A stretch of DNA of 64,000 nt from a virus: IMG/VR virus record IMGVR_UViG_3300042290_000544, one strand, 5' to 3'. The position numbers and the translations under genes are program-made. The notes under the pieces are model-generated. The model ran no database searches and was not told where the DNA came from. It worked only from the letters and a program-made list of their open reading frames with translations. Positions 32 to 44,984 of the stretch are shown here, one piece after another; the first letter of the stretch is position 1, and every line of letters begins with the position of its first letter.

Positions 32-1423
32 TTATGATTTATTGGCAACGTTATATTTGACTTTTCTGAAGATGCTTTCATCTGAACTAATGGCTCCAAT
101 AAGGTTCTGGAGCAATTCAAAGAGAACGTCTTTTTCAGCAGTTGTTGTAACCGGAATTTTGTTATCCAGTTTCTTAATCGCACGTGTAACAGTATTTAGT
201 TTAAGGCGGTCAAGGAGACCAAGACGGACAAGCATCTGCATATGGGCAAGTTCCTTTGCATCGTTATTAGAAGCAACATCCTCATTTACCTGCTCGGTGG
301 CATATTCCTTCTCTGCTTCCGGTTGGTCGTCGTAGAGGTCCTGAGTGTACTCAACATATGAATGAACGTCATCCATTTGATCACGCGCACTTGTAATTTT
401 TGCTTGGATCCAGGCTTCCAGTTCATCCTCATCATCCATTGAATCGGCAAGGTCCTTGGCCATATCGGCAATCTTAAGGAGCTGTCCCTTGGCCATAATG
501 ATTTCCTCTTGATCGTCGTCATGCTCGGCTTCCTCATTTACTGAACCTTCGCCAGCCTTCAGCTTGCTTACCATATCTAAATGGAATTTCTGAGCAGCAG
601 TATCACCACGTTTACCGGCATTCACTGCCATCTGTGAATGTTTTGTGATTTTAAGGTTTAGTTTCTCATCGGCTGCTTCGGCTGCCATTTCCACGGCTTC
701 CTTGAGCCCCTGTTTCACAAGGCGATGTGCCATAAACTTGTGAAGTGTTGACGAACGATTATGGCTTTTTGCCATAGCCTCAAGTGGCTTCAATTCGCTT
801 GCTTCACCACCCGATTTAATATGGGCCGCAATCTTCTTTTCATACGCCGATGCAGCTTTTGCGTGTGCATCGGAAGCGCGGACGTGCGTTGAGATTGACG
901 GGTTCAGTTTGGCTTTCTGAGAGAACTTAGCAGCCTTGACTCCGTGTGCCGATTCATCAAGACTTTCCTCGGTGCCTTCTTTAACACCTTCTTTTGGTAC
1001 GCAGTTTGGAACCTTTCTGCCATTCTTCATCTTCATTCCGATTGCTTCATAACCCTTCCAGCACGCATTTTCAAGGTCCTCTTCCATACGAGTGACGGGC
1101 TTCTTTGCATTTTCTGCATCCCGGTTTTTGGCAACTTCAAACTTAGCATCCATGTGTTTATGGAACGCATCATTGTCACCGGCAGCCTTTGCTGCTTGAG
1201 CTGCTGCGTGATGCTTGGCCATATCTTCGGCTGAACCTTCTTTTACAAGATTCTTGTAGAGCCCACCCGGACCAGCTAAACTCTTTTTCTTGGCTGGCTT
1301 CTTCCATTTAGAATCAAATTCTGATTTGGACATTGCACCTGCATTGACGCGTGCCATGTCTGAGCTCTTTTTCTTTGAGGCTTCTTCTAAGTTAGATTCG
1401 CGGATTTGTTTGATGCTTTTCAT
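32..1423 (-). CDS. Putative internal head protein (low complexity, Glu/Lys/His-rich)
   Basis: 463-aa ORF. N-terminus MKSIKQIRE; many L/V-x-E motifs resembling gp21 cleavage sites; CWKGY..GMK.K.GRKVPNCVP motif typical of T4-like phage hypotheticals. Confidence 0.6.
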   Translation of the reverse strand: MKSIKQIRESNLEEASKKKSSDMARVNAGAMSKSEFDSKWKKPAKKKSLAGPGGLYKNLVKEGSAEDMAKHHAAAQAAKAAGDNDAFHKHMDAKFEVAKNRDAENAKKPVTRMEEDLENACWKGYEAIGMKMKNGRKVPNCVPKEGVKEGTEESLDESAHGVKAAKFSQKAKLNPSISTHVRASDAHAKAASAYEKKIAAHIKSGGEASELKPLEAMAKSHNRSSTLHKFMAHRLVKQGLKEAVEMAAEAADEKLNLKITKHSQMAVNAGKRGDTAAQKFHLDMVSKLKAGEGSVNEEAEHDDDQEEIIMAKGQLLKIADMAKDLADSMDDEDELEAWIQAKITSARDQMDDVHSYVEYTQDLYDDQPEAEKEYATEQVNEDVASNNDAKELAHMQMLVRLGLLDRLKLNTVTRAIKKLDNKIPVTTTAEKDVLFELLQNLIGAISSDESIFRKVKYNVANKS

Positions 1424-2325
1424 GATTGTTTACGGAATTTGCTTAATGGAATACCTTGACTCGATGGTATTCTAATTTTTGGTTGATAGATTGGAAATGC
1501 TTTTTCTTCTAATTTCTGGTCTTCCTGAATGATGACCTTTTTCTCGACAAGCTCCACGGCATTCAGCCATTTACGGACCTTCTTGCCATCCGTGAGTTCG
1601 ACAATAAGATAATTGGATCCACAGTGAGTAATCTTGCCAACCTCTTCGGATTCCTTAATGACAACATCGTCGCCAATTTCAAAGAGTTCTCCAGACACAT
1701 ATGCTTCTCTACGGTCGCCAACGGATTCCAGCTGGATGTGTTTACGGAAGTTGCGTGATTCCTTGAGGCCAAGCCCATTACGGACGGCATTAAAATAATC
1801 TTCGCATTCCGCAAAGTCGGCTGGAAGCCCCTTTGAAAAGGTCTCAAGGTCATTTGCAATCGCAGCAGCACGTAATTTTGATTCCGAAAGGATATTGTTG
1901 CATTCTGTTGCCGCAACAACCTTGACGCCACCTTTAAAGGTAAATGCAAAACCATTATAGCTATCGAGGAGTGCTTGGTACTCAACCACTCTGTCGGCAG
2001 GAGCAACCATGGTGGCACCAGTAAATCCTTGTTCAAACAGTTTTGTGCAGATGGCAAGAGGACCATCAACATCATCGCTCATAATGTTCCGAGCATATTT
2101 CGGAGACATTTTGCGCATCCACTTCACCTTTTCTTCAAGCTTGAGCGGATTGTTCTTTTGGTCATCGACATGAGAAGTATAGATGCGATATGTTTTACCG
2201 TTCGCAATCTTTGCTACATTCTCAATGAGGTCTTCACTCTCGATCGTGGGCGGATTAAATTTGCCAAAGGTAAAAACAACTTCCTTTGTCACCGACTCAC
2301 TTACAAATTGTATAAAGGACTTCAT
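1420..2325 (-). CDS. Cytidylyltransferase-like (HxGH family) protein with degenerate active site
   Basis: FTFGKFNPPTIESE (canonical FGRFNPPTxGH), KNNPL and SESKLR motifs; N-terminus MKSFIQFVSE. Confidence 0.75.
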   Translation of the reverse strand: MKSFIQFVSESVTKEVVFTFGKFNPPTIESEDLIENVAKIANGKTYRIYTSHVDDQKNNPLKLEEKVKWMRKMSPKYARNIMSDDVDGPLAICTKLFEQGFTGATMVAPADRVVEYQALLDSYNGFAFTFKGGVKVVAATECNNILSESKLRAAAIANDLETFSKGLPADFAECEDYFNAVRNGLGLKESRNFRKHIQLESVGDRREAYVSGELFEIGDDVVIKESEEVGKITHCGSNYLIVELTDGKKVRKWLNAVELVEKKVIIQEDQKLEEKAFPIYQPKIRIPSSQGIPLSKFRKQS

Positions 2326-2327
2326 TA

Positions 2328-2780
2328 TTACTTAGAAGGCTTCTTTTTCAGACGGTTCCGCTTTTTTTCACGATCCTTATCCGCTAAACCGTGGAGAGTT
2401 TTAATAATCGCTAGCTCGCGGCTTCTTCCAACACTTACGTTATCCGTTTCTTCTTCGAGACCAAAGTGTTTTGCAACATGTCTATCGCCGTGGCGGTAGC
2501 GAAGAATATCACCGATCATTGCTCTTTTACCACCAACCTCAGCTGGAGTGTATTTTGAATGAACCCTACCTAGTGTTCCCTGATGAATCTTATGGACTTC
2601 ATCGGTGGATTTGCTCTTTAGGTTCTCGTGATCTTTCTTGATGTCGGCCTGTCTACGGGTATCAAGAGCATCATTCTCTTCATCCATAGGACGGCGCTTA
2701 CGCTTCATTGCGTTAAGGTCCTGCTGTTCTGATTCGCCGCCGGTATACTGTACTGGAGTAAAGTCTTTAAAGCTTAACAT
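2328..2780 (-). CDS. Hypothetical late protein, possible internal head protein
   Basis: 150-aa ORF starting MLSFKDF, downstream of a TATAAATA late promoter. Confidence 0.6.
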   Translation of the reverse strand: MLSFKDFTPVQYTGGESEQQDLNAMKRKRRPMDEENDALDTRRQADIKKDHENLKSKSTDEVHKIHQGTLGRVHSKYTPAEVGGKRAMIGDILRYRHGDRHVAKHFGLEEETDNVSVGRSRELAIIKTLHGLADKDREKKRNRLKKKPSK

Positions 2781-2885: not shown

Positions 2886-3191
2886 ATGAAATACACTACA
2901 CTTCTTATCCTTGCAGTTATTACTGCTCTCCTCACCGGTTGCGGAACTGTTGATTCGGCGTACCAATCCACAAAGGGTATTGGTTCTGCTGCTATCGGCG
3001 GCGTAGGCAATATCGTCGGCAATGGCGCGTCGGATGCTTCCAAGACTCTTGGAGTCGCTTCTGAAGCCACCGGCAAAGTTGTTTCTGGCGCGGGTAGAGT
3101 TGTTGGCGGCGGTCTCGATCTTATTGGCGGCGTCGTAAAAGGCACCTCCGACATTATTGCTCCTTCGACACCAGCTCCAAAACAGTACTAA
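2886..3191 (+). CDS. Small lipoprotein
   Basis: Signal peptide with lipobox LLTG-C, then Gly/Val/Ala-rich amphipathic repeats. Confidence 0.75.
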   Translation: MKYTTLLILAVITALLTGCGTVDSAYQSTKGIGSAAIGGVGNIVGNGASDASKTLGVASEATGKVVSGAGRVVGGGLDLIGGVVKGTSDIIAPSTPAPKQY

Positions 3192-3219
3192 TCGTTTAGG
3201 TAAATCTTAACAACATTGA

Positions 3220-3245
3220 CCCCGGGAGCAATCTCGGGGTTATTT
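3220..3245 (+). terminator. Probable intrinsic terminator between convergent genes
   Basis: CCCCGGGA-GCAA-TCTCGGGG hairpin followed by TTATTT. Confidence 0.55.
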
Positions 3246-3947
3246 GTTTTCGTAAAAGCCGCGGTACAATTCGGTTTCTTCGGCTCCGATATTCTTTCTG
3301 AGGAATTCAAGTGCTGGGTCTCGGGTACCGTCGATACGATTGTGTCCGTTACCGTAACCACCACTGACTCCATACATACCTTTGATTCCGATAAGAGTTC
3401 TCTCGAAATCTTTGGGTTCATGGATCTTTTTACTTGCCTTCTTTATGTTCCAGAGGCGAACATCAACAAATGGGCACGTATCTTTTAAGATATTGGGCAT
3501 CTCGTGGAATAGATTGCGATTAAACGAGCTCTGACAGAGACTGCAATGGGTCATATTGCTATGGATCGACCACGTTCTTTTAAGCACATTGTAATAAAGA
3601 GCGCGACCCTCTCCGACTAGATCGTAGGTGCCCGAATTAAACCAGCCTATTGTTTTTTCAAGATAGTCCTTGGAATACCAGTCATCGTCCTCGATAATGA
3701 CCACGGCATCTCCCGTAATCATTTCCTGATGCTCAAATAGATTCCTTAACTTTAACACCAAACTCTGTTTTCCCTTGGTCTCGGGCGTATGGATATGCTG
3801 CTGACCGAGTGTGCAATTGACGGGCATTGTGCTATCGTCCAAGACAATCCATTGATGGTAAGGCACCGTCTGTCGAGCCATAAATCTTTCACAGAGTTTA
3901 AATGCTTCTTGACGGTTGCATGTGGGAGTCACGAGAGTAAGTTTCAT
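3240..3947 (-). CDS. Glycosyltransferase family 2 (GT-A fold)
   Basis: LVTPTCNR, WIVLDD and IIEDDDWY (DxD) motifs. Confidence 0.8.
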   Translation of the reverse strand: MKLTLVTPTCNRQEAFKLCERFMARQTVPYHQWIVLDDSTMPVNCTLGQQHIHTPETKGKQSLVLKLRNLFEHQEMITGDAVVIIEDDDWYSKDYLEKTIGWFNSGTYDLVGEGRALYYNVLKRTWSIHSNMTHCSLCQSSFNRNLFHEMPNILKDTCPFVDVRLWNIKKASKKIHEPKDFERTLIGIKGMYGVSGGYGNGHNRIDGTRDPALEFLRKNIGAEETELYRGFYENK

Positions 3948-3961
3948 AAATGGTTATTTAT

Positions 3962-3969
3962 TATAAATA
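3962..3969 (+). promoter_or_regulatory. Late promoter of the plus-strand three-gene operon
   Basis: TATAAATA 8 nt before the ATG at 3978; back-to-back AATAAATA on the minus strand (3955-3962) for the GT2 gene. Confidence 0.75.
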
Positions 3970-3977
3970 GAACATCC

Positions 3978-5201
3978 ATGTTTGAACTACTTTCACTCCA
4001 ATCTGTTGCCGATACGTACATCGATATGTTGTCGGAAGCAACGAATCCCAATCAGCTGACTCATATTCATCATCCGGAAGACCGACCGTTAATGCACGGC
4101 TCACAGGGATTTGAACATGCACACGCGGCTCTCATGCATGCGCACGAGCATATGAAGGCGAAGAAACATAGTTCCGACCTTACCATGAAGTATGACGGTT
4201 CTCCGTCATTGGTCTTCGGACATCATCCAGTCACCAAGAAATTCTTTGTTGCGACCAAGTCGGCTTTCAATAAGAATCCAAAATTAAACTATTCTGATTC
4301 CGACATTGAAAAGCATCATGGTCATGCTCCGGGCTTGGTCGGTAAGTTGAAACATGCTCTGAAGCATCTTCCAAAGGTTGCTCCAAAACAAGGCGTCTAT
4401 CAAGGCGACCTCATGCACACCCGTGAAGATCATAAACTGCATGAAGCAGTCTCATTCACTCCCAACACTATTACCTACACGGCACGCGGAGATGAAGAAA
4501 AAAAGGTAAAGAAATCTCATGTCGGTATCGTAGTGCACCAACAGTATCATCCGCATCCGAATAAGCCGGGCGTCGAGCATATGTCGGTGAGCCCGCATCC
4601 CGACACCCACAATTTTAAACAGCATCCCGACGTTCATCTCAAGACTGCCGAACACGATACAAGTAAAGTTGAATACGGTAAATCGGATCAAAGTGCGTTC
4701 CATAAACATATGGGAGCAGCCAAGGCAATTCACGACAAGCACGGCGCCTCAATGTACAAAGCAACCGCGCGGCACCAGGGCGAGGCAGGACATCTTTCAA
4801 CGTACATTAATCAGACCGTCCGTACCGGCGAGACGCCAAATGCACAGGGCTTCCAAAAGCATCTTATGGGTCATCATGCCAAACTGGCATCAAAGGTAAA
4901 GACTCCGGCTGCAGTTGCAAGACACCACGCAACCGGCGCCGAACATGTCTCCCACGTGTCGAAACACGCTGGACACTACAATAATCTTCTTTCAATGCAC
5001 AGTCATCTGGCTGCCGCAAAGAATACCCTTGTAAAGAACCTTGAGACCCATGAAGGCGGTCTGGAGCATCATATCGATGGTGCCAAGTCGAAGCCCGAAG
5101 GTTTTGTCGTGAATCACAAATTCAAGGGTAAGACTCATCCGACCAAACTGGTGAATCGTGCCGAATTTGCAAAAGCAAACTTTGCCAAAGTAAGAGGATG
5201 A
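3978..5201 (+). CDS. His-rich ligase-like covalent nucleotidyltransferase (DUF6267-like)
   Basis: Motifs TMKYDGS (I, KxDG), YQGDL (III-like), PEGFVV (IV), TKLVNR (V); start moved to ATG 3978, after the late promoter. Confidence 0.65.
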   Translation: MFELLSLQSVADTYIDMLSEATNPNQLTHIHHPEDRPLMHGSQGFEHAHAALMHAHEHMKAKKHSSDLTMKYDGSPSLVFGHHPVTKKFFVATKSAFNKNPKLNYSDSDIEKHHGHAPGLVGKLKHALKHLPKVAPKQGVYQGDLMHTREDHKLHEAVSFTPNTITYTARGDEEKKVKKSHVGIVVHQQYHPHPNKPGVEHMSVSPHPDTHNFKQHPDVHLKTAEHDTSKVEYGKSDQSAFHKHMGAAKAIHDKHGASMYKATARHQGEAGHLSTYINQTVRTGETPNAQGFQKHLMGHHAKLASKVKTPAAVARHHATGAEHVSHVSKHAGHYNNLLSMHSHLAAAKNTLVKNLETHEGGLEHHIDGAKSKPEGFVVNHKFKGKTHPTKLVNRAEFAKANFAKVRG

Positions 5202-5821
5202 AATCATTCCTTGAGTTTTTAGCCGAAGCAGGTGAACACGGAACACTTCATTCATTTGATGTGGACGAAACTCTATTCAAGACAAATGCAAAGGTGCACG
5301 TGATGCACGGAAATAAGCACGTTACATCCCTAAGCAATTCGGAATACAATACTCATAAATTGTCTCCTGGTCACCACTACGATTATAGCGAATTTCAAGA
5401 TTCTAAAAAGTTTCATGATGAATCGCATCCCATCCATAAGATGTTGGCCAAGGTAAAGGCGATTCATAATAACATTAGGAACTCTCCGCAGCATAAGATC
5501 ATTATCAATACCGCCAGAGGCGATATGAATGATAAGGAAAAGTACCTTGCTAAATTTAAAAAGCACGGTCTACCGATTCATGATATTCACGTAAACCGAG
5601 CAGGTAATGACAAGACTCCAGGTAGCGTTGCAGAAAGGAAAGCACGTGTAATCGACCATCATATCGCTCAACATAAATTTAAGAGTGTGCATGTGTACGA
5701 CGACGACACTAAGAATTTAGATCACTCTTTAGCTTTGGGTAAAAAGCATCCTAATACAAAAATTCACGCATGGCACGTGCAGCACAACGGAAGTATTAAG
5801 GCGTATCACGGAGCACAATAA
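5198..5821 (+). CDS. His-rich HAD-superfamily phosphatase
   Basis: FDVDETL (DxDxT), NTAR, a conserved K and YDDD motifs; N-terminus MKSFLEFLAE. Confidence 0.8.
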   Translation: MKSFLEFLAEAGEHGTLHSFDVDETLFKTNAKVHVMHGNKHVTSLSNSEYNTHKLSPGHHYDYSEFQDSKKFHDESHPIHKMLAKVKAIHNNIRNSPQHKIIINTARGDMNDKEKYLAKFKKHGLPIHDIHVNRAGNDKTPGSVAERKARVIDHHIAQHKFKSVHVYDDDTKNLDHSLALGKKHPNTKIHAWHVQHNGSIKAYHGAQ

Positions 5822-5823
5822 TT

Positions 5824-6444
5824 ATGCTATCATTCAAACAATTTGTCACTGAAGCCGCAGCAGCCGATTCGCACCATGTATTGGCATTCGGTCGTATGAA
5901 TCCTATTACCAACGGACACGAGACTGTGGTGAATAAGGTCCACGAAATTGCAAAGAAGCATAATGCCGGACACACCGTTGTGGTGTCTCACTCGCAGGAC
6001 GCAAAGAAGAATCCGCTCACAGGCGCACAGAAAGTAAAGCACGCCAAGCACGCTTTCCCGGGTACTAATGTTGTTGCTTCCAGTAAGGAAAGCCCAACGA
6101 TTCTGCATCACGCGGCTCATCTATCCGACAAAGGTGTAAAGCATCTACACGTGATTGTCGGTTCCGACCGCGCCAAGGAGATGCACGGTTTACTCCACAA
6201 GTACAATGGAAAGCCATCGGCTGGTGGACACAAGGGTTACAATTTTAAATCCATTACTGTACATTCTGCCGGACAACGTGATCCGGATGCAGAAGGTGTG
6301 AGTGGTATTTCAGCAAGCAAGATGCGCGCTCATGCTGCCGAGGGTAACAAGAAAGCCTTCCATGCAGGAGCACCCTCAAAAATGTCGGCTGATCATAAGG
6401 ACGCCATGTACCACGATGTCCGTAAGGGAATGGGTATTGGTTAA
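5824..6444 (+). CDS. His-rich cytidylyltransferase/NMNAT-like HxGH nucleotidyltransferase
   Basis: FGRMNPITNGH, VGSDR and ISASKMR motifs; N-terminus MLSFKQFVTE. Confidence 0.8.
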   Translation: MLSFKQFVTEAAAADSHHVLAFGRMNPITNGHETVVNKVHEIAKKHNAGHTVVVSHSQDAKKNPLTGAQKVKHAKHAFPGTNVVASSKESPTILHHAAHLSDKGVKHLHVIVGSDRAKEMHGLLHKYNGKPSAGGHKGYNFKSITVHSAGQRDPDAEGVSGISASKMRAHAAEGNKKAFHAGAPSKMSADHKDAMYHDVRKGMGIG

Positions 6445-40962: not shown

Positions 40963-42312
40963 TTAGCCATTGTCAAGGAGACCAGAGACACCGAAGATAC
41001 GGAAGTATCTGTTGGCGCGATTGGTTCCGGTGCCGTTGCTGATGTCGGAGACATTAGTTTCAGCGAATGGATTTGCGACCATGCCGTAACGGGTTTTGAA
41101 TCCGATACGTGGTTGGAAGTCAGATTGACCGACTGCACGTACCATGGTGAGTGGAACGTATGGTGCGTAGAACATACCTGCGTCATACGGATTGGTACCA
41201 CGGTAACCGCTGGTGACGTAGTCAACAGTGGCATATGGATCAATGTAGACCTTGGTACGACCGTTGAGAACGCCAGCAAAGGTATTGCCGGTATCGTCAA
41301 CTTCGAGGCTGGTGCTGAGTGCTGGAGCGTAGTCGAGTACGCCTGCAGCTGCGAGTGCGGTAGCAACATCCGAAGAGCAGAGGATGAAGTTACCCTTGCC
41401 ACGACGTGTTTCTTTTGCGATAACATTCGCTTCGCGTTCGATTTGAACAAGAAGACCCTTGAAGCGTTCAACGTTCCAACGACCATCAGAGTCGGTGAGG
41501 AGGTTGAAGTTACCCTTTGTGGCAACGTTTGCTTGTTGTGCACCGAGCTTGGCTTTTACATTGATCGTGCGGATAACTTCGCGGTTGATTTCCGCGAGGA
41601 TTTCAGCAGAGAGGATGTTAGCGAGCTCAGATTCTGCATCAAGACCGTGGACGGCCTTGAGGTCTTGAGCAAGTTCCATGGTGTATTCAGCCTTCAGAGC
41701 GCGGGTCTTAGCGGTAACGGTTTGTTTCTCGATTGAGAAAGCCATTTCGCCGAATGAACCTGCACCGGAAGAACCTGAACCGAGACCTTCAGCAGTGCTG
41801 GTGGCCATACCGGTACCAACTGAAAAGGTATCGGAAACGGTATCGGTATCGCTGTCTGCACCTGTTCCACCTTTAGCAGATGGGAGAGATGAAGAATCGC
41901 CGCCGCTGGTGCCGGTGCCAGCAAATGCTGAATCGGCTTCGTTGAAGAGAGCTTCAGTTCCACCTTGTGAGGTGTACTTGCTCTTCATAGCGAAGATCAG
42001 ACCGGTTGGTCCGCTCATTGGTTGAACGCCAGCGATGTCGTAGGCGATCAGGTTTGGCATGCTACGACGAACAAGGCTAATGAGGATTGGATCCCAGTTA
42101 GCGATGTTGCCTGTGCCACCGGTGGTAGCATTAGCAGCGGTCTCATTGAGACCTTGGAAAGACGACTGAGCGCGTTCTTCACGGAGTGCTTTTTCTTGAT
42201 TTTCAAGAATGCACGCTGTAACCGAACGGCGGTAGTTATCTTTGATTGATGGGAGATCCTTATGGTTGATGATAGGATTCCACTTTTCTTGGAGTTTTTC
42301 TGAGTTGAACAT
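40963..42312 (-). CDS. gp23: Major capsid protein
   Basis: GVQPMSGPTGLIFA, RALKAEYTMELAQDLKAVHGLDAE, GFKTRYG. Confidence 0.98.
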   Translation of the reverse strand: MFNSEKLQEKWNPIINHKDLPSIKDNYRRSVTACILENQEKALREERAQSSFQGLNETAANATTGGTGNIANWDPILISLVRRSMPNLIAYDIAGVQPMSGPTGLIFAMKSKYTSQGGTEALFNEADSAFAGTGTSGGDSSSLPSAKGGTGADSDTDTVSDTFSVGTGMATSTAEGLGSGSSGAGSFGEMAFSIEKQTVTAKTRALKAEYTMELAQDLKAVHGLDAESELANILSAEILAEINREVIRTINVKAKLGAQQANVATKGNFNLLTDSDGRWNVERFKGLLVQIEREANVIAKETRRGKGNFILCSSDVATALAAAGVLDYAPALSTSLEVDDTGNTFAGVLNGRTKVYIDPYATVDYVTSGYRGTNPYDAGMFYAPYVPLTMVRAVGQSDFQPRIGFKTRYGMVANPFAETNVSDISNGTGTNRANRYFRIFGVSGLLDNG

Positions 42313-42346: not shown

Positions 42347-43681
42347 TTATGACTTGAGTGTGCGGGTAATTGCTGAAGAATATGCTGCCATTACGGGAGT
42401 CAGTTCAGTTTCCTGTTCTGATTCATTGAGTACGGCGGTTTCTACTTCATTTTCTTTGGACTTCTTAACAATCTTGCGGAAGTAAGATTCTTTGACGGAC
42501 CGAACTTTCTTTGTGAAAGATTCAGCATCTTCAAAATCAATACCTTCTGACAGACTGGTGAGCTTGACTGCTTCTGTTGAAGCAAGACCGACTGAAGCCT
42601 CAGCAAGGATCTGGTTGCGCTTGAGGGCGTTTACAGACTCATTGAGTTTCATGTTGGATTCGGTTGCCTTCATCAGCTGTTCTTCAAGGGAAGCAACGTT
42701 CTTATTGAGTGTATCAACAAGATTTTCCTTGCCTTCTGGAACTTCGATGTAGCTTTCAGTAAACACATTCTTCAATGCGTTAATGAAATTTTCGGCGATT
42801 TCGGTGCGTAGACCAGATTCGATTGCAACTTTGTTCTCTTCCATCCAGGTACCTACGACATAGCTAAGATAGCTGTCGACCTTTTCTGAGAGCGAAGAAG
42901 CAATTTTAGTTGTTTCTTCATCCAGTTGGGAGCGGTAATTTTCCTCAATGCGGGAGACTTCTTCTGCAAGTTTGGCCTTAACGGTTGATTCAAACAGCTG
43001 AGATGCCTTAGAACGGAAAGATTCGGAAAGAGAGGTTTCGGCCTGTAAGAGGACATCAAGGTTTTCCTTAACGTCATCTTTTTCTTTCTTGTCTTTTTCT
43101 TCGTCATCGGCAGATTTCTCTGCTTCTGGTTGCTGTTCGTCTTCACCTTTTTCGTCGGCTTTTTCAGCTTCTGAATCGTCTTCGGAACCTGCCTTTGGTT
43201 CTTCAGCCTTTGGCGTCTCTTGTGGAGTCGTTAGAGTGCTGTAAACATTGGCAAGATCCTCAGTCTTCATTGTTGACATATGTTGGTACATTGCGTTGAT
43301 GAGCCCAGCTTTGGTCTGTGGAGCCTGTGCAACTGGAGCAGCAGCAATAGCTGCGTCGGTAGCTGCAACGGACTTTTGAACCTCTGGTGCAAGTGCTGGA
43401 GACTCTGGTTTTCCCAGAGAATGTGGCGCAACCGCCACTGGAGCAGCACTCACTGCGGACGCAACTGCATCGGCGGCTGGTTTTACAGCATCCGCGGCAG
43501 GCGCATCGGTCGGTACAGCATTTGCTACTGGAGCATCAGCAGTACCTTCTTCGTCATCAAGCTTCTTCTTGCCTTGTTCCTCGCCAGAAACTTCAACATC
43601 TTCAACGAGTCCATCAGCAAGTAGTTCCTCAACAGTGATGTCTTCAATGAGATCGACTTGACCTTTTGATGTGTGTGACAT
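42347..43681 (-). CDS. gp22: Prohead core scaffold protein
   Basis: LSESFRSKASQLFE, KVDSYLSYV..WMEEN.VAIE.GLR; long acidic/Ala-Pro N-terminal extension. Confidence 0.9.
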   Translation of the reverse strand: MSHTSKGQVDLIEDITVEELLADGLVEDVEVSGEEQGKKKLDDEEGTADAPVANAVPTDAPAADAVKPAADAVASAVSAAPVAVAPHSLGKPESPALAPEVQKSVAATDAAIAAAPVAQAPQTKAGLINAMYQHMSTMKTEDLANVYSTLTTPQETPKAEEPKAGSEDDSEAEKADEKGEDEQQPEAEKSADDEEKDKKEKDDVKENLDVLLQAETSLSESFRSKASQLFESTVKAKLAEEVSRIEENYRSQLDEETTKIASSLSEKVDSYLSYVVGTWMEENKVAIESGLRTEIAENFINALKNVFTESYIEVPEGKENLVDTLNKNVASLEEQLMKATESNMKLNESVNALKRNQILAEASVGLASTEAVKLTSLSEGIDFEDAESFTKKVRSVKESYFRKIVKKSKENEVETAVLNESEQETELTPVMAAYSSAITRTLKS

Positions 43682-43734: not shown

Positions 43735-43873
43735 GATATCAAGCGAGAATTGCTTGTGATCAGTCTCTGTTAATTCACGAATTACCTTGGATGTATTCAC
43801 GTTACCATAATTAGCATCTTCAGTTTTACCCATAATAGAAAGTCTTGAGCAATTATTTAAGAACAATTGCATC
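43735..43873 (-). other. 139-nt structured insertion at the gp21 3' end, flanked by duplicated CTC
   Basis: TTT CTC [GATGCAA...TTGATATC] CTC TCT AAA CTT TAA; the two ends can base-pair. Confidence 0.5.
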
Positions 43874-44497
43874 GAGAAAGTTTTTGAACACCCGTACCTG
43901 AGCTTCAATAAGCTGTTTGGACGGTGTACGGTTGATTTCTTTTTGAATCTTCTCGGCAATGATTTCATTACCGCGAACAAAGTATTCAACGCCTTCCATG
44001 ATACCATTGACGAAGGCTTCTGGAGCAGAAGGATCCTGAACAATATCAATGGTGGAAAGTACAAAGTCGGATTTGACCGACATAATGTTGCCGTTGCGTT
44101 CCAGTGAACCCATACCGCGGCTCGAAACGCCAAGACGAACTCCGCCTTCAACGAGACCCTTTACGATGTTGCCCATCGGAGTATTGAGAATAAGCGCCTT
44201 ACCCATTACGTTATGTCCGTCCCATTTGAGAGAGGTAATGCGATGTGATACCTTATCAAGGTTTACGGTAGGACCATCTGGGTGATTCAGTTCACCAACT
44301 GCACGACCCGTCGTAACTTGCTCATTCACATATTTGGCAACTGCTGGAGAAAGAACATTGTAGCGATAGATGCGACCATTGCGGTTTGCCTTTTCGGCTT
44401 GCATAAAAACACCTTCAACATATGTTTTCTTTTCTGCGCCGACGCCTTCGGTAATATAACCGATGTCACTATCGAGATGTTCTGTGATCAACTTCAT
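43853..44497 (-). CDS. gp21: Prohead protease
   Basis: MKLITE, NRNGRIY, GELNHP, GVSSRGMGS, DPSAPEA. Confidence 0.96.
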   Translation of the reverse strand: MKLITEHLDSDIGYITEGVGAEKKTYVEGVFMQAEKANRNGRIYRYNVLSPAVAKYVNEQVTTGRAVGELNHPDGPTVNLDKVSHRITSLKWDGHNVMGKALILNTPMGNIVKGLVEGGVRLGVSSRGMGSLERNGNIMSVKSDFVLSTIDIVQDPSAPEAFVNGIMEGVEYFVRGNEIIAEKIQKEINRTPSKQLIEAQVRVFKNFLDAIVLK

Positions 44498-44503
44498 TTG
44501 AAA

Positions 44504-44809
44504 TTATTCTGCTTCTGAATTGTGATATGCAATCATATTCTTATGATGCTGCATTAAAAGATTGTGATACTTCTTGCCCGAACCTGGCATACTCATTGAA
44601 TAAGGTTCGGCTAACTTTTCGTGAGCATCATGAGCCTGCTGATGCATCTTGCTGGCTAACTTATGATGCTCTCTACGTAGCGCGTGTTGAGAATGAGAAT
44701 TTGCAATGTTAGTTGCATCATGTGCATGATTTTGCGCATAATCATGATTATAATCGAGAGCTGTCGCCTCTGCGATCATCGAACGAACTGAATTAATTAA
44801 GTCGTGCAT
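44504..44809 (-). CDS. His-rich protein at the prohead core (gp68) position
   Basis: Start MHDLINSVRSMIAE right after the upstream stop; repeated His-Ala helices. Confidence 0.55.
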   Translation of the reverse strand: MHDLINSVRSMIAEATALDYNHDYAQNHAHDATNIANSHSQHALRREHHKLASKMHQQAHDAHEKLAEPYSMSMPGSGKKYHNLLMQHHKNMIAYHNSEAE

Positions 44810-44810
44810 A

Positions 44811-44984
44811 TTATTTAATATCCGAAGTCGGTTTCTTGTTGTAAAGTTCCGAAGCCAAAGATGCCTTGCGTTCATCAAGAACGGCATTAATCTTGGATGT
44901 CATCACGCGAGTAAAGTTCTCATTGGCTTCCGAGGCTTTTCCGGACGCCAATGCTTTAATCATTGTGGTAATGTCATTATTCAT
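44811..44984 (-). CDS. Small prohead core protein (gp67-like position), not in the ORF track
   Basis: Hand translation MNNDITTMIKALASGKASEANENFTRVMTSKINAVLDERKASLASELYNKKPTSDIK (57 aa); late promoter at 44993-45000. Confidence 0.75.
   Translation of the reverse strand: MNNDITTMIKALASGKASEANENFTRVMTSKINAVLDERKASLASELYNKKPTSDIK

What the first reader, a model, noticed from the sequence alone, without database searches (positions are those of the whole stretch)
3962..6444. Inverted late operon of possibly virion-packaged heal-and-seal / nucleotide enzymes
Seen: the only multi-gene plus-strand unit in the window, driven by TATAAATA. It encodes a protein with ligase-type motifs (KYDG, QGD, EGFVV, KLV), a DxDxT HAD phosphatase and an HxGH nucleotidyltransferase. 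The last two start MKSFLEFLAE and MLSFKQFVTE. Known: T4 internal proteins use a capsid-targeting sequence (MKTYQEFIAE) cleaved after Glu by gp21, and T4 Pnkp plus Rnl1 repair tRNA cut by host anticodon nucleases. Inference: a three-enzyme kit is made late, packaged in the head and injected, to repair RNA or restore NAD/nucleotides before phage gene expression, as a pre-loaded counter-defence.
Basis: partly seen in the sequence, partly recalled or inferred. Interest (0 to 1): 0.8.

Follow-up and report, generated by a model that had tools for sequence, protein, structure and literature searches.

The report
Capsid-tagged ligase, phosphatase, nucleotidyltransferase operon
An uncultured T4-like lake phage makes, late in infection, three histidine-rich enzymes (an RNA-ligase-fold protein, a HAD phosphatase and a nucleotidyltransferase) that carry the same short N-terminal tag phage T4 uses to load proteins into its head, so they are probably injected with the DNA; what they act on is unknown.

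Summary
A TATAAATA late-promoter motif (3962-3969) precedes three tightly coupled + strand genes.

- A (3978-5201) is Pfam DUF6267. Its model (pLDDT 93) matches only ligases in an unbiased fold search, RNA ligases first (Z 7-8.7). The KxDG lysine and motifs III-V are conserved.
- B (5198-5821) is a HAD phosphatase, nearest the T4 Pnkp phosphatase (Z 13.8, nearly tied with AphA-type nucleotidases).
- C (5824-6444) is an HxGH nucleotidyltransferase (TNGH plus ISASKMR).

B and C start with a near copy of the T4 IPII/IPIII capsid targeting sequence, which I read from the T4 record. The same tag heads most homologues of all three unrelated families. The window encodes gp21 protease, gp22 scaffold and gp23. 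Published proteomes found tagged C homologues in virions of cyanophages S-SZBM1 and S-CREM2. Head packaging is therefore well supported.

The "three-enzyme kit" is only partly supported. A and C are the conserved pair, often fused. B is a swappable cassette, replaced by DUF6321 in a close relative and absent from isolate genomes. No 5' kinase is present. RNA repair or NAD restoration remains inference.

Verdict: a new variant of a known kind. Other first-stage notes of this scan cover the same stretch.

The parts
3962..3969 (+). T4-type late promoter motif TATAAATA, 8 nt upstream of the first gene
   Evidence: 13 copies in the window against 2.3 expected. Most lie just upstream of structural gene starts.
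3978..5201 (+). Gene A, 407 aa, Pfam DUF6267. It has an RNA-ligase-like covalent nucleotidyltransferase fold with a 120-residue helical insert (about residues 235-355). It is basic (pI 9.5) and 12.8% His. Its long variant N-terminal tag ends in MLSE-A at residues 18-22.
   Evidence: DUF6267 at E 4.6e-89. AF2 pLDDT 93.4. All of the top 15 of 48,161 chains are ligases, RNA ligases first, Z 8.2-6.8; second look Z 8.7. Motif conservation; composition.
5198..5821 (+). Gene B, 207 aa, a HAD-superfamily phosphatase (DVDET, T105, DD168-169) with a small insert after motif I. It is 12.6% His, pI 9.4.
   Evidence: AF2 pLDDT 91.3. VIA-align: T4 Pnkp phosphatase Z 13.8, Pnkp1 13.2, AphA 11.9. Alignment. 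No Pfam or PHROG hit.
5198..5227 (+). Codons 1-10 of B, MKSFLEFLAE: capsid-targeting-like propeptide, followed by Ala as in T4 IPII/IPIII
   Evidence: The roles of residues 4 and 7 (targeting) and 8 and 10 (processing) come from PMC9026906.
5824..6444 (+). Gene C, 206 aa, an HxGH-class nucleotidyltransferase (PITNGHE and GISASKMR). It is 10.7% His, pI 9.9.
   Evidence: phrog_3041 at 1.5e-60. PF01467 scores 21.0 bits, exactly at the cut-off. TIGR00125 at 2.6e-06. Profile hit to PPAT at E 0.007. Alignment.
5824..5853 (+). Codons 1-10 of C, MLSFKQFVTE: capsid-targeting-like propeptide, followed by an Ala-rich linker of variable length
   Evidence: M1, F4 and E10 are invariant in 21 aligned homologues. 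The tag heads 113 of 120 homologues.
43853..44497 (-). gp21-type prohead maturation protease, the enzyme expected to remove the tags
   Evidence: phrog_207 at 8e-72.
42347..43681 (-). gp22-type scaffolding core protein, the expected docking partner of the tags. It is rich in [LIV]xE sites.
   Evidence: phrog_237 at 1.3e-70. Site list.
1420..2325 (-). Tagged paralogue of C (starts MKSFIQFVSE) with a degenerate HxGH motif (PTIESE) and an extra C-terminal domain. It belongs to the same cluster of tagged late genes.

Best explanation
Genes A, B and C form one late transcription unit whose products are loaded into the prohead, as T4 internal proteins are.

Proposed mechanism:
- A 10-residue N-terminal tag (aromatic at position 4, Phe/Tyr at 7, Leu/Ile/Val at 8, Glu at 10) docks each protein on the gp22 scaffold core.
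- The gp21 protease cuts after Glu10. For A the cut would follow the MLSE site at residue 21.
- The basic, His-rich mature enzymes stay with the packaged DNA and enter the cell with it.

The cargo:
- A is an RNA-ligase-fold enzyme that should form a lysyl-NMP intermediate at K71.
- C is an HxGH nucleotidyltransferase that works with A; the two are one polypeptide in many relatives.
- B is a Pnkp/AphA-like HAD phosphatase that this lineage inserted between them.

The most likely job is immediate work on nucleic-acid ends or nucleotide cofactors before any phage gene is expressed, for example 3'-phosphate removal plus sealing.

Shown here: gene structure, folds, motifs, tag conservation, presence of the head machinery. 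Shown by others: virion presence of C homologues. Inferred: cleavage, injection, substrates.

Sub-probabilities: ligase fold 0.9; packaging 0.7; nucleic-acid end repair 0.3.
For: Operon and late motif.

Folds:
- A: every one of the top 15 of 48,161 chains is a ligase. NgrRnl Z 8.2 (rmsd 3.7 over 184 residues), TbREL1 7.9, T4 Rnl2 7.8, Trl1 7.4, T4 Rnl1 6.8, DNA ligases 6.6 or lower. The second look gives the same order.
- A: KxDG, D144, EG374-375 and K390 are conserved.
- B: HAD fold, with T4 Pnkp phosphatase the top match at Z 13.8, rmsd 2.7, 134 residues.
- C.

A-C coupling: about 40 of the 150 best DUF6267 cluster representatives carry the C domain in the same chain, and the C domain starts after the tag positions. 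phrog_455 is such a fusion. A-C synteny holds in S-SZBM1, Melnitz and L002.

The tag:
- The same logo heads 113/120 C, 44/61 B and 78/119 close A homologues.
- A variable linker follows it.
- T4 IPII/IPIII start MKTYQEFIAEA; positions 4, 7, 8 and 10 are the functional ones (PMC9026906).
- A relative has a 61-aa protein starting MKTYKEIIAE.

Head machinery: gp20, gp21, gp22 and gp23 are in the window. gp23 has LNE-T at residues 55-58.

Virion data: tagged cytidylyltransferases were detected in CsCl-purified S-SZBM1 and S-CREM2 virions (PMC9146016, PMC10665884). The untagged S-SZBM1 DUF6267 is not in that paper's virion table as far as I read it.

Composition: A, B and C have 10.7-12.8% His against 2.1 +/- 1.3% in 48 other ORFs. 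The only other real gene above 10% is the 127-aa ORF between portal and protease, where T4 keeps its core proteins.
Against: - There is no direct evidence for this phage: no virion proteome, no N-terminal mapping, no cultured host.
- The published virion detections rest on 2-3 peptides. Their authors note possible carry-over of abundant proteins.
- A's fold match is modest (Z below 9). Foldseek gives E of 0.1 or worse. Sequence profiles see no ligase: Pfam, PDB profile, hhalign against T4 Rnl2.
- A's own N-terminus departs from the 10-residue tag.
- B's top matches are nearly tied with nucleotidases, and B has a cap-like insert, so a small-molecule substrate is as likely as a polynucleotide end. 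A tagless B relative sits beside dUTPase and regA.
- No 5' kinase lies in the operon or the window.
- His enrichment is lineage-specific; the Melnitz homologues have 1-2%.
Confidence: 0.6

Rival explanations
1. The proteins are packaged and injected as above, but they act on small molecules, not on RNA or DNA ends. C would make a dinucleotide cofactor (NAD+, dephospho-CoA or similar), B would be a nucleotidase, and A would use or adenylylate a non-polynucleotide substrate. The purpose would be to reset the host nucleotide or cofactor pools at the moment of entry.
For: - C's best profile match is phosphopantetheine adenylyltransferase (E 0.007), with weak NMNAT-family hits.
- B aligns over more residues with AphA nucleotidases (151 against 134).
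- B has an insert in the cap position.
- A tagless B homologue sits next to dUTPase.
- Cyanophage authors read the virion protein as NMNAT-like.
Against: - All structural neighbours of A are polynucleotide ligases.
- C scores far below the NMNAT equivalog cut-offs (15.6 bits against 341).
- No Nampt or Nudix partner lies in the operon.
Confidence: 0.2
2. The enzymes are not packaged. The shared N-terminus is some other signal, such as assembly into a cytoplasmic complex, translation efficiency or turnover. The enzymes would work in the cytoplasm late in infection, for example on phage DNA before packaging, or in a moonlighting assembly role like T4 gp63/Rnl1.
For: - There are no direct virion data for this phage.
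- Virion detections of homologues are low-coverage and could be contamination.
- S-SZBM1 DUF6267 has no tag, so the family can work without it.
Against: - The tag matches the T4 capsid targeting sequence at each of the four experimentally defined positions.
- It is conserved at the amino-acid level with different codons.
- It is absent from the C domain when fused behind A.
- It is followed by variable linkers.
- In the window it occurs only in a cluster of late genes.
Confidence: 0.13
3. The three proteins are structural internal proteins that only derive from enzymes. They would serve as basic, His-rich DNA counter-ions or ejection aids and be catalytically irrelevant.
For: - All three have pI 9.4-9.9 and extreme His content. 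This is shared with the 127-aa ORF in the prohead-core position.
- The paralogue at 1420-2325 has lost the HxGH histidine.
Against: Catalytic residues of A, B and C are at least 90% conserved or invariant across homologues down to 30-50% identity.
Confidence: 0.07

Closest known systems
T4 internal proteins IPI, IPII, IPIII and Alt: capsid-targeting-sequence cargo processed by gp21
   Same: Both have a ten-residue N-terminal tag with the same functional positions (T4 MKTYQEFIAE-A; here MKSFLEFLAE-A and MLSFKQFVTE-A). Both are late genes, have basic products, depend on a gp21/gp22 head core, and show cargo diversity behind a constant tag.
   Different: The cargo here is a ligase-fold enzyme, a HAD phosphatase and an HxGH nucleotidyltransferase of 200-400 aa. 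T4 carries small restriction inhibitors or an ADP-ribosyltransferase. Cleavage and injection are not shown here. A carries a longer variant tag.
ATP-dependent RNA ligases: NgrRnl (Rnl5), T4 Rnl2, TbREL1, Trl1, T4 Rnl1
   Same: Predicted nucleotidyltransferase fold. KxDG lysine, acidic motif III, EG motif IV and Lys in motif V occur in the same order. Motifs IV and V lie at the same offset from the end of the aligned range as in T4 Rnl2 and NgrRnl.
   Different: No sequence-level similarity is detectable. A helical domain of about 120 residues is inserted between motifs IIIa and IV, rather than appended at a terminus. Motif V has one Lys plus a downstream Arg. There is a conserved N-terminal HxED motif. 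Activity is untested.
T4 Pnkp plus Rnl1, and bacterial Pnkp1/Rnl/Hen1 RNA repair
   Same: A HAD phosphatase whose nearest solved structures are the Pnkp and Pnkp1 phosphatase domains sits in one operon with an RNA-ligase-fold enzyme.
   Different: There is no 5' kinase and no Hen1. B is not a constant partner of A. B has a cap-like insert that Pnkp lacks. The T4 enzymes are early cytoplasmic proteins, not head cargo.
Virion-associated 'cytidylyltransferase/NMNAT-like' proteins of cyanomyoviruses (S-SZBM1, S-CREM2, S-SCSM1, S-CBWM1)
   Same: C belongs to the same PHROG families (phrog_3041 and phrog_395). The S-SZBM1 and S-CREM2 proteins start MRFRQFIIEA and MKNFSSFLTEA, that is, with the same tag.
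   Different: Those papers report the detection without a targeting mechanism. They do not link the protein to the neighbouring DUF6267 gene or to a ligase fold.

Membership tests
T4-type capsid-targeted internal head proteins | N-terminal 10-residue tag: aromatic at position 4 and Phe at 7 (targeting), Ile/Leu/Val at 8 and Glu at 10 (processing) | tested here: met
   B and C fit at all four positions. The logo is conserved in the A, B and C families. A itself carries a longer variant ending in MLSE.
T4-type capsid-targeted internal head proteins | The phage encodes a gp21-type prohead protease and a gp22-type scaffold core | tested here: met
   phrog_207 at 8e-72 and phrog_237 at 1.3e-70, beside portal and gp23.
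T4-type capsid-targeted internal head proteins | Late expression | tested here: inconclusive
   TATAAATA lies 8 nt upstream and is enriched in the window. Metatranscriptome contigs touch A and B at depth 2-3 only and cannot show a transcript.
T4-type capsid-targeted internal head proteins | Presence in virions with the propeptide removed | not testable with these tools
   Only homologue data exist: tagged C homologues in S-SZBM1 and S-CREM2 virion proteomes. No N-terminal mapping has been done.
Covalent nucleotidyltransferases (ATP-dependent RNA ligases) | Nucleotidyltransferase domain fold | tested here: met
   The top 15 of 48,161 chains are all ligases, Z 8.2-5.9. The top 50 of the second look are all ligases. 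Z is modest and Foldseek E is 0.1 or worse.
Covalent nucleotidyltransferases (ATP-dependent RNA ligases) | Motif I KxDG lysine and motifs III, IV, V | tested here: met
   K71, G74, D144, E374, G375 and K390 are at least 90% conserved in 42 sequences down to 28% identity. Equivalence to ligase residues is inferred from order and offsets, not from a residue-level superposition.
Covalent nucleotidyltransferases (ATP-dependent RNA ligases) | Match to a curated ligase sequence family (Pfam RNA_ligase, DNA_ligase_A_M) | tested here: not met
   Only DUF6267 is hit. The PDB profile search finds no ligase. hhalign against T4 Rnl2 gives probability 0.2%. An ESM cluster in which 48% of members carry RNA_ligase scores 0.75, a lead only.
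Covalent nucleotidyltransferases (ATP-dependent RNA ligases) | Self-adenylylation and strand joining | not testable with these tools
   This needs biochemistry.
ATP-dependent DNA ligases and capping enzymes | C-terminal OB-fold domain after motif V | tested here: not met
   In the model only one helix (residues 394-406) follows motif V.
Pnkp-type heal-and-seal RNA repair | HAD 3'-phosphatase with a DxDxT nucleophile | tested here: met
   DVDET with invariant D21 and D23. The HAD fold has T4 Pnkp and Pnkp1 as top matches, Z 13.8 and 13.2. The next unrelated HADs score 12.8-11.9, so substrate class is not resolved.
Pnkp-type heal-and-seal RNA repair | A 5'-OH polynucleotide kinase in the same protein or operon | tested here: not met
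   There is no P-loop domain in A, B or C. The kinase found near B in locus L004 has no homologue in the window.
HxGH nucleotidyltransferases (PF01467 superfamily) | (H/T)xGH and ISxxxxR signature motifs | tested here: met
   PITNGHE and GISASKMR are conserved. PF01467 scores 21.0 bits against a cut-off of 21. TIGR00125 scores 27.5 against 27.7.
NMN/NaMN adenylyltransferase (NMNAT) | Score above the curated equivalog cut-offs | tested here: not met
   TIGR01526 scores 15.6 bits against 341, and TIGR00482 scores 14.5 against 112. The best PDB profile hit is PPAT, not NMNAT.

The most novel reading that the evidence does not exclude
DUF6267 is a previously unrecognised RNA-ligase family with an inserted helical domain. 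Together with its obligate HxGH nucleotidyltransferase partner, it would be delivered from the capsid by many T4-like aquatic phages (cyanophages, pelagiphages, OM43 and lake phages). It would repair or modify nucleic-acid ends in the first seconds of infection, acting as a pre-loaded answer to host RNA- or DNA-cutting defences. The capsid tag would serve as a recombination-friendly handle that lets cargo cassettes such as the HAD phosphatase be swapped in.
Probability: 0.25. Interest if true: 0.85.

Novelty: new variant of a known kind. Interest (0 to 1): 0.66.

Why it matters
- DUF6267 and the "cytidylyltransferase" are among the most widespread unexplained genes of T4-like marine and freshwater phages. 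The searches here found 2,512 A and 1,076 C proteins in metagenomes, and hits in 466 and 530 deposited phage genomes.
- The capsid tag explains why cyanophage virion proteomes keep finding a nucleotidyltransferase.
- The ligase fold, and the tight coupling of the ligase-fold protein to that nucleotidyltransferase, turn two annotation blanks into a testable hypothesis of injected nucleic-acid or nucleotide enzymes.
- The result extends the T4 capsid-targeting system, so far studied in coliphages, to a large environmental phage group.
- It offers a simple sequence rule for predicting injected proteins in uncultured T4-like phages.

Tried and rejected
- Sequence-only links of A to ligases failed: Pfam, NCBIfam and PHROG names, PDB profile search, and hhalign against T4 Rnl2. 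Foldseek against PDB gave no hit below E 0.1, although ligases led the list.
- The PDB profile search for B gave nothing.
- Single-sequence PDB search for C gave nothing.
- B has no homologue in the phage isolate collection.
- hhalign of A against the 293-aa L004 protein was negative.
- Searching the window for the L004 P-loop kinase found none.
- No whole genome is held for this window, so a kinase or other tagged genes elsewhere in the genome could not be checked.
- One freshwater metatranscriptome holds read-sized contigs over parts of A and B at depth 2-3. Being contigs, possibly from DNA, they show neither transcription nor a start site.
- Literature searches for DUF6267, for the misspelt annotation "cytitidyltransferase", and for capsid targeting together with RNA ligase returned nothing. 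The Syn9 transcriptome paper is not held.
- I considered A as the missing replicative DNA ligase. I rejected this as the main reading because of the late motif, the tag, the absence of an OB domain and RNA ligases ranking first.
Full report
**What is there.** The window is part of an uncultured T4-like phage. It encodes terminase, sheath, tube, portal, gp21-type protease, gp22-type scaffold and gp23-type major head protein. Near-identical DNA occurs in at least 19 lake-water metagenome runs.

Almost all genes lie on the minus strand. At 3978-6444 three plus-strand ORFs form one unit. A's stop overlaps B's start (ATGA), and B and C are 2 nt apart. TATAAATA lies 8 nt before A. This motif occurs 13 times in the window against 2.3 expected, mostly just upstream of structural genes. 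No sigma-70-like site stands out in the region.

**Gene A (407 aa).** Pfam assigns it to DUF6267 (E 4.6e-89) and PHROG to the N-terminal half of phrog_455. The family is large: 2,512 proteins in the 90% clusters, 1,711 representatives at 50% identity, and hits in 466 deposited phage genomes, mostly T4-like cyanophages.

An AlphaFold model built on 42 diverse sequences has mean pLDDT 93.4. Foldseek found nothing below E 0.1, but ligases led its list. An unbiased VIA-align search of 48,161 chains gave only ligases in the first 15 places:
- Naegleria RNA ligase, Z 8.2 (rmsd 3.7, 184 residues)
- T. brucei REL1, Z 7.9
- T4 Rnl2, Z 7.8
- fungal Trl1, Z 7.4
- T4 Rnl1, Z 6.8
- DNA ligases, Z 6.6 and below

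The second look gave 50 ligases out of 50, in the same order.

K71 and G74 (KYDG), D144 (QGD), E374-G375 (EGFVV), K390 and R394 are at least 90% conserved. Motifs IV and V lie at the same distance from the end of the aligned range as in Rnl2 and NgrRnl. That equivalence is my inference from the ranges.

A helical block of about 120 residues (235-355) is inserted before motif IV, and no OB domain follows motif V. Sequence profiles do not see the relationship. The assignment therefore rests on predicted structure plus motifs, at modest Z.

**Gene B (207 aa).** It has no Pfam or PHROG family, only 61 homologues and none in 50,697 deposited phage genomes. The model (pLDDT 91.3) is a HAD fold. T4 Pnkp phosphatase is the best match (Z 13.8, rmsd 2.7, 134 residues), then the Pnkp1 phosphatase of the Pnkp1/Rnl/Hen1 complex (Z 13.2). 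Unrelated HADs and AphA nucleotidases follow within 1-2 Z units. D21, D23, T105, D168 and D169 are invariant. An insert sits after motif I, in the cap position. The data do not settle whether the substrate is a polynucleotide or a mononucleotide.

**Gene C (206 aa).** It belongs to the phage "cytidyltransferase" PHROGs (1.5e-60). It carries PITNGHE and GISASKMR, the two signatures of HxGH nucleotidyltransferases. Its profile weakly hits phosphopantetheine adenylyltransferase (E 0.007). It lies far below the NMNAT equivalog cut-offs.

**The tag.** B starts MKSFLEFLAE-A and C starts MLSFKQFVTE-A. I read T4 IPII and IPIII from NC_000866. Both start MKTYQEFIAE-A, and IPI starts MKTFKEFT. A review of Black's work states three things: the first ten residues of IPIII suffice for encapsidation, residues 4 and 7 govern targeting, and residues 8 and 10 govern gp21 processing (PMC9026906). 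All four positions are conserved here.

The same logo, M-[KLI]-[ST]-F-x-x-[FY]-[LIV]-x-E, heads homologues of three unrelated folds:
- 113 of 120 C homologues
- 44 of 61 B homologues
- 78 of 119 close A homologues
- 59 of 147 A representatives

Further properties fit a modular N-terminal propeptide:
- A linker of variable length follows the tag.
- The codons differ between copies.
- The tag is absent from the C domain when C is fused behind A.
- One B relative lacks it entirely.
- A in this phage has a longer variant ending MLSE-A at a low-confidence hinge.
- In the window the strict tag occurs only in B, C and the C paralogue at 1420-2325. IPI-like variants occur on the two neighbouring late genes.

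**Independent support for packaging.** Two published proteomes of CsCl-purified cyanophage virions list the C homologue: S-SZBM1 locus 140, and S-CREM2 ORF154 (PMC9146016 and PMC10665884). I read their genes. They start MRFRQFIIEA and MKNFSSFLTEA, and ORF154 is preceded by TATAAATA. In S-SZBM1 the adjacent DUF6267 gene has no tag, and I did not see it in the virion table. The S-CREM2 authors caution that abundant proteins could co-purify.

Within the window, A, B and C have 10.7-12.8% His and pI 9.4-9.9. The 48 other long ORFs average 2.1 +/- 1.3% His. The only other real gene above 10% is the 127-aa ORF between portal and protease, where T4 has its prohead core genes. This enrichment is lineage-specific; the Melnitz homologues have 1-2%.

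**Is it a three-enzyme kit?** Only in part. A and C are the stable pair:
- About 40 of the 150 best DUF6267 representatives are A-C fusions.
- A and C are adjacent in S-SZBM1.
- They flank one small gene in Melnitz and in locus L002.

In L002, whose A is 76% identical, the middle gene is a tagged DUF6321 protein instead of B. In Melnitz it is a tagged, very basic 130-aa protein. B occurs elsewhere in other phages:
- In L004 it sits in a run of tagged genes, including a 61-aa protein starting MKTYKEIIAE, next to a C-like protein and a P-loop kinase.
- In L005 it sits among small genes.
- In L006 a tagless copy sits beside regA and dUTPase.

So B is a cassette that this lineage placed between A and C. 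No kinase is present in the operon or the window, so a complete Pnkp/Rnl-type pathway is not encoded here.

**Mechanism and odds.** I put the ligase fold of A at about 0.9. I put head packaging of B and C, and probably A, at about 0.7. I put nucleic-acid end repair as the purpose at about 0.3. Small-molecule or cofactor chemistry is the main alternative, followed by a cytoplasmic late role.

**Novelty.** Capsid-targeted internal proteins are textbook T4 biology, and virion-associated cytidylyltransferases have been reported. I found no paper naming DUF6267, none linking a capsid targeting sequence to these families, and none describing the A-C coupling. This is a new variant of a known kind, with a clear experimental path.

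Noticed in passing
window 44504-44887 (-): A 127-aa ORF between the portal and prohead protease genes, where T4 has its core proteins gp67/gp68. It has 12.6% His, has an MIAE-A site and matches no PHROG. It is the only gene outside the operon with His above 10%.
   Followed up: partly
window 1420-2325 (-): A tagged paralogue of C (starts MKSFIQFVSE) in which TxGH has become TIES. It has an extra C-terminal domain that hits phrog_4808. In relative L002 the orthologue keeps SSHE.
   Followed up: partly
window 2328-2780 (-) and 32-1423 (-): Two further genes downstream of a minus-strand TATAAATA (2842-2849) start MLSFKDFT and MKSIKQIRE. The first resembles T4 IPI (MKTFKEFT). With the operon they form a cluster of tagged genes on both strands.
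   Followed up: partly
window 2886-3191 (+), hairpin 3217-3242: A single plus-strand ORF with a lipoprotein-like signal (a Cys follows a hydrophobic stretch). It has its own TATAAATA at 2871 and a terminator-like hairpin. It is conserved in L002.
   Followed up: no
window 3240-3947 (-): A family 2 glycosyltransferase lies between the two tagged gene groups, with no late motif. In L002 an unrelated 210-aa gene replaces it.
   Followed up: no
L004 6626-10902: A lake-phage relative has a run of tagged genes after B: a 61-aa protein starting MKTYKEIIAE, a 174-aa protein, and a 486-aa protein with a C-like domain. There is also a 293-aa protein with KTDG near its start and EGLVV near its end (possibly another ligase-like enzyme), followed by a Zeta/AAA_33-type P-loop kinase.
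   Followed up: partly
L008 2372-7035 (Methylophilales phage Melnitz-1): Four consecutive genes start with the tag: a 361-aa protein, the DUF6267 protein, a very basic 130-aa protein and a 650-aa C-domain protein. This is a cultured system in which packaging could be tested.
   Followed up: partly
window 40963-42312 (-): The gp23 homologue has LNE-T at residues 55-58, a plausible gp21 maturation site. gp22 carries 18 [LIV]xE sites.
   Followed up: no
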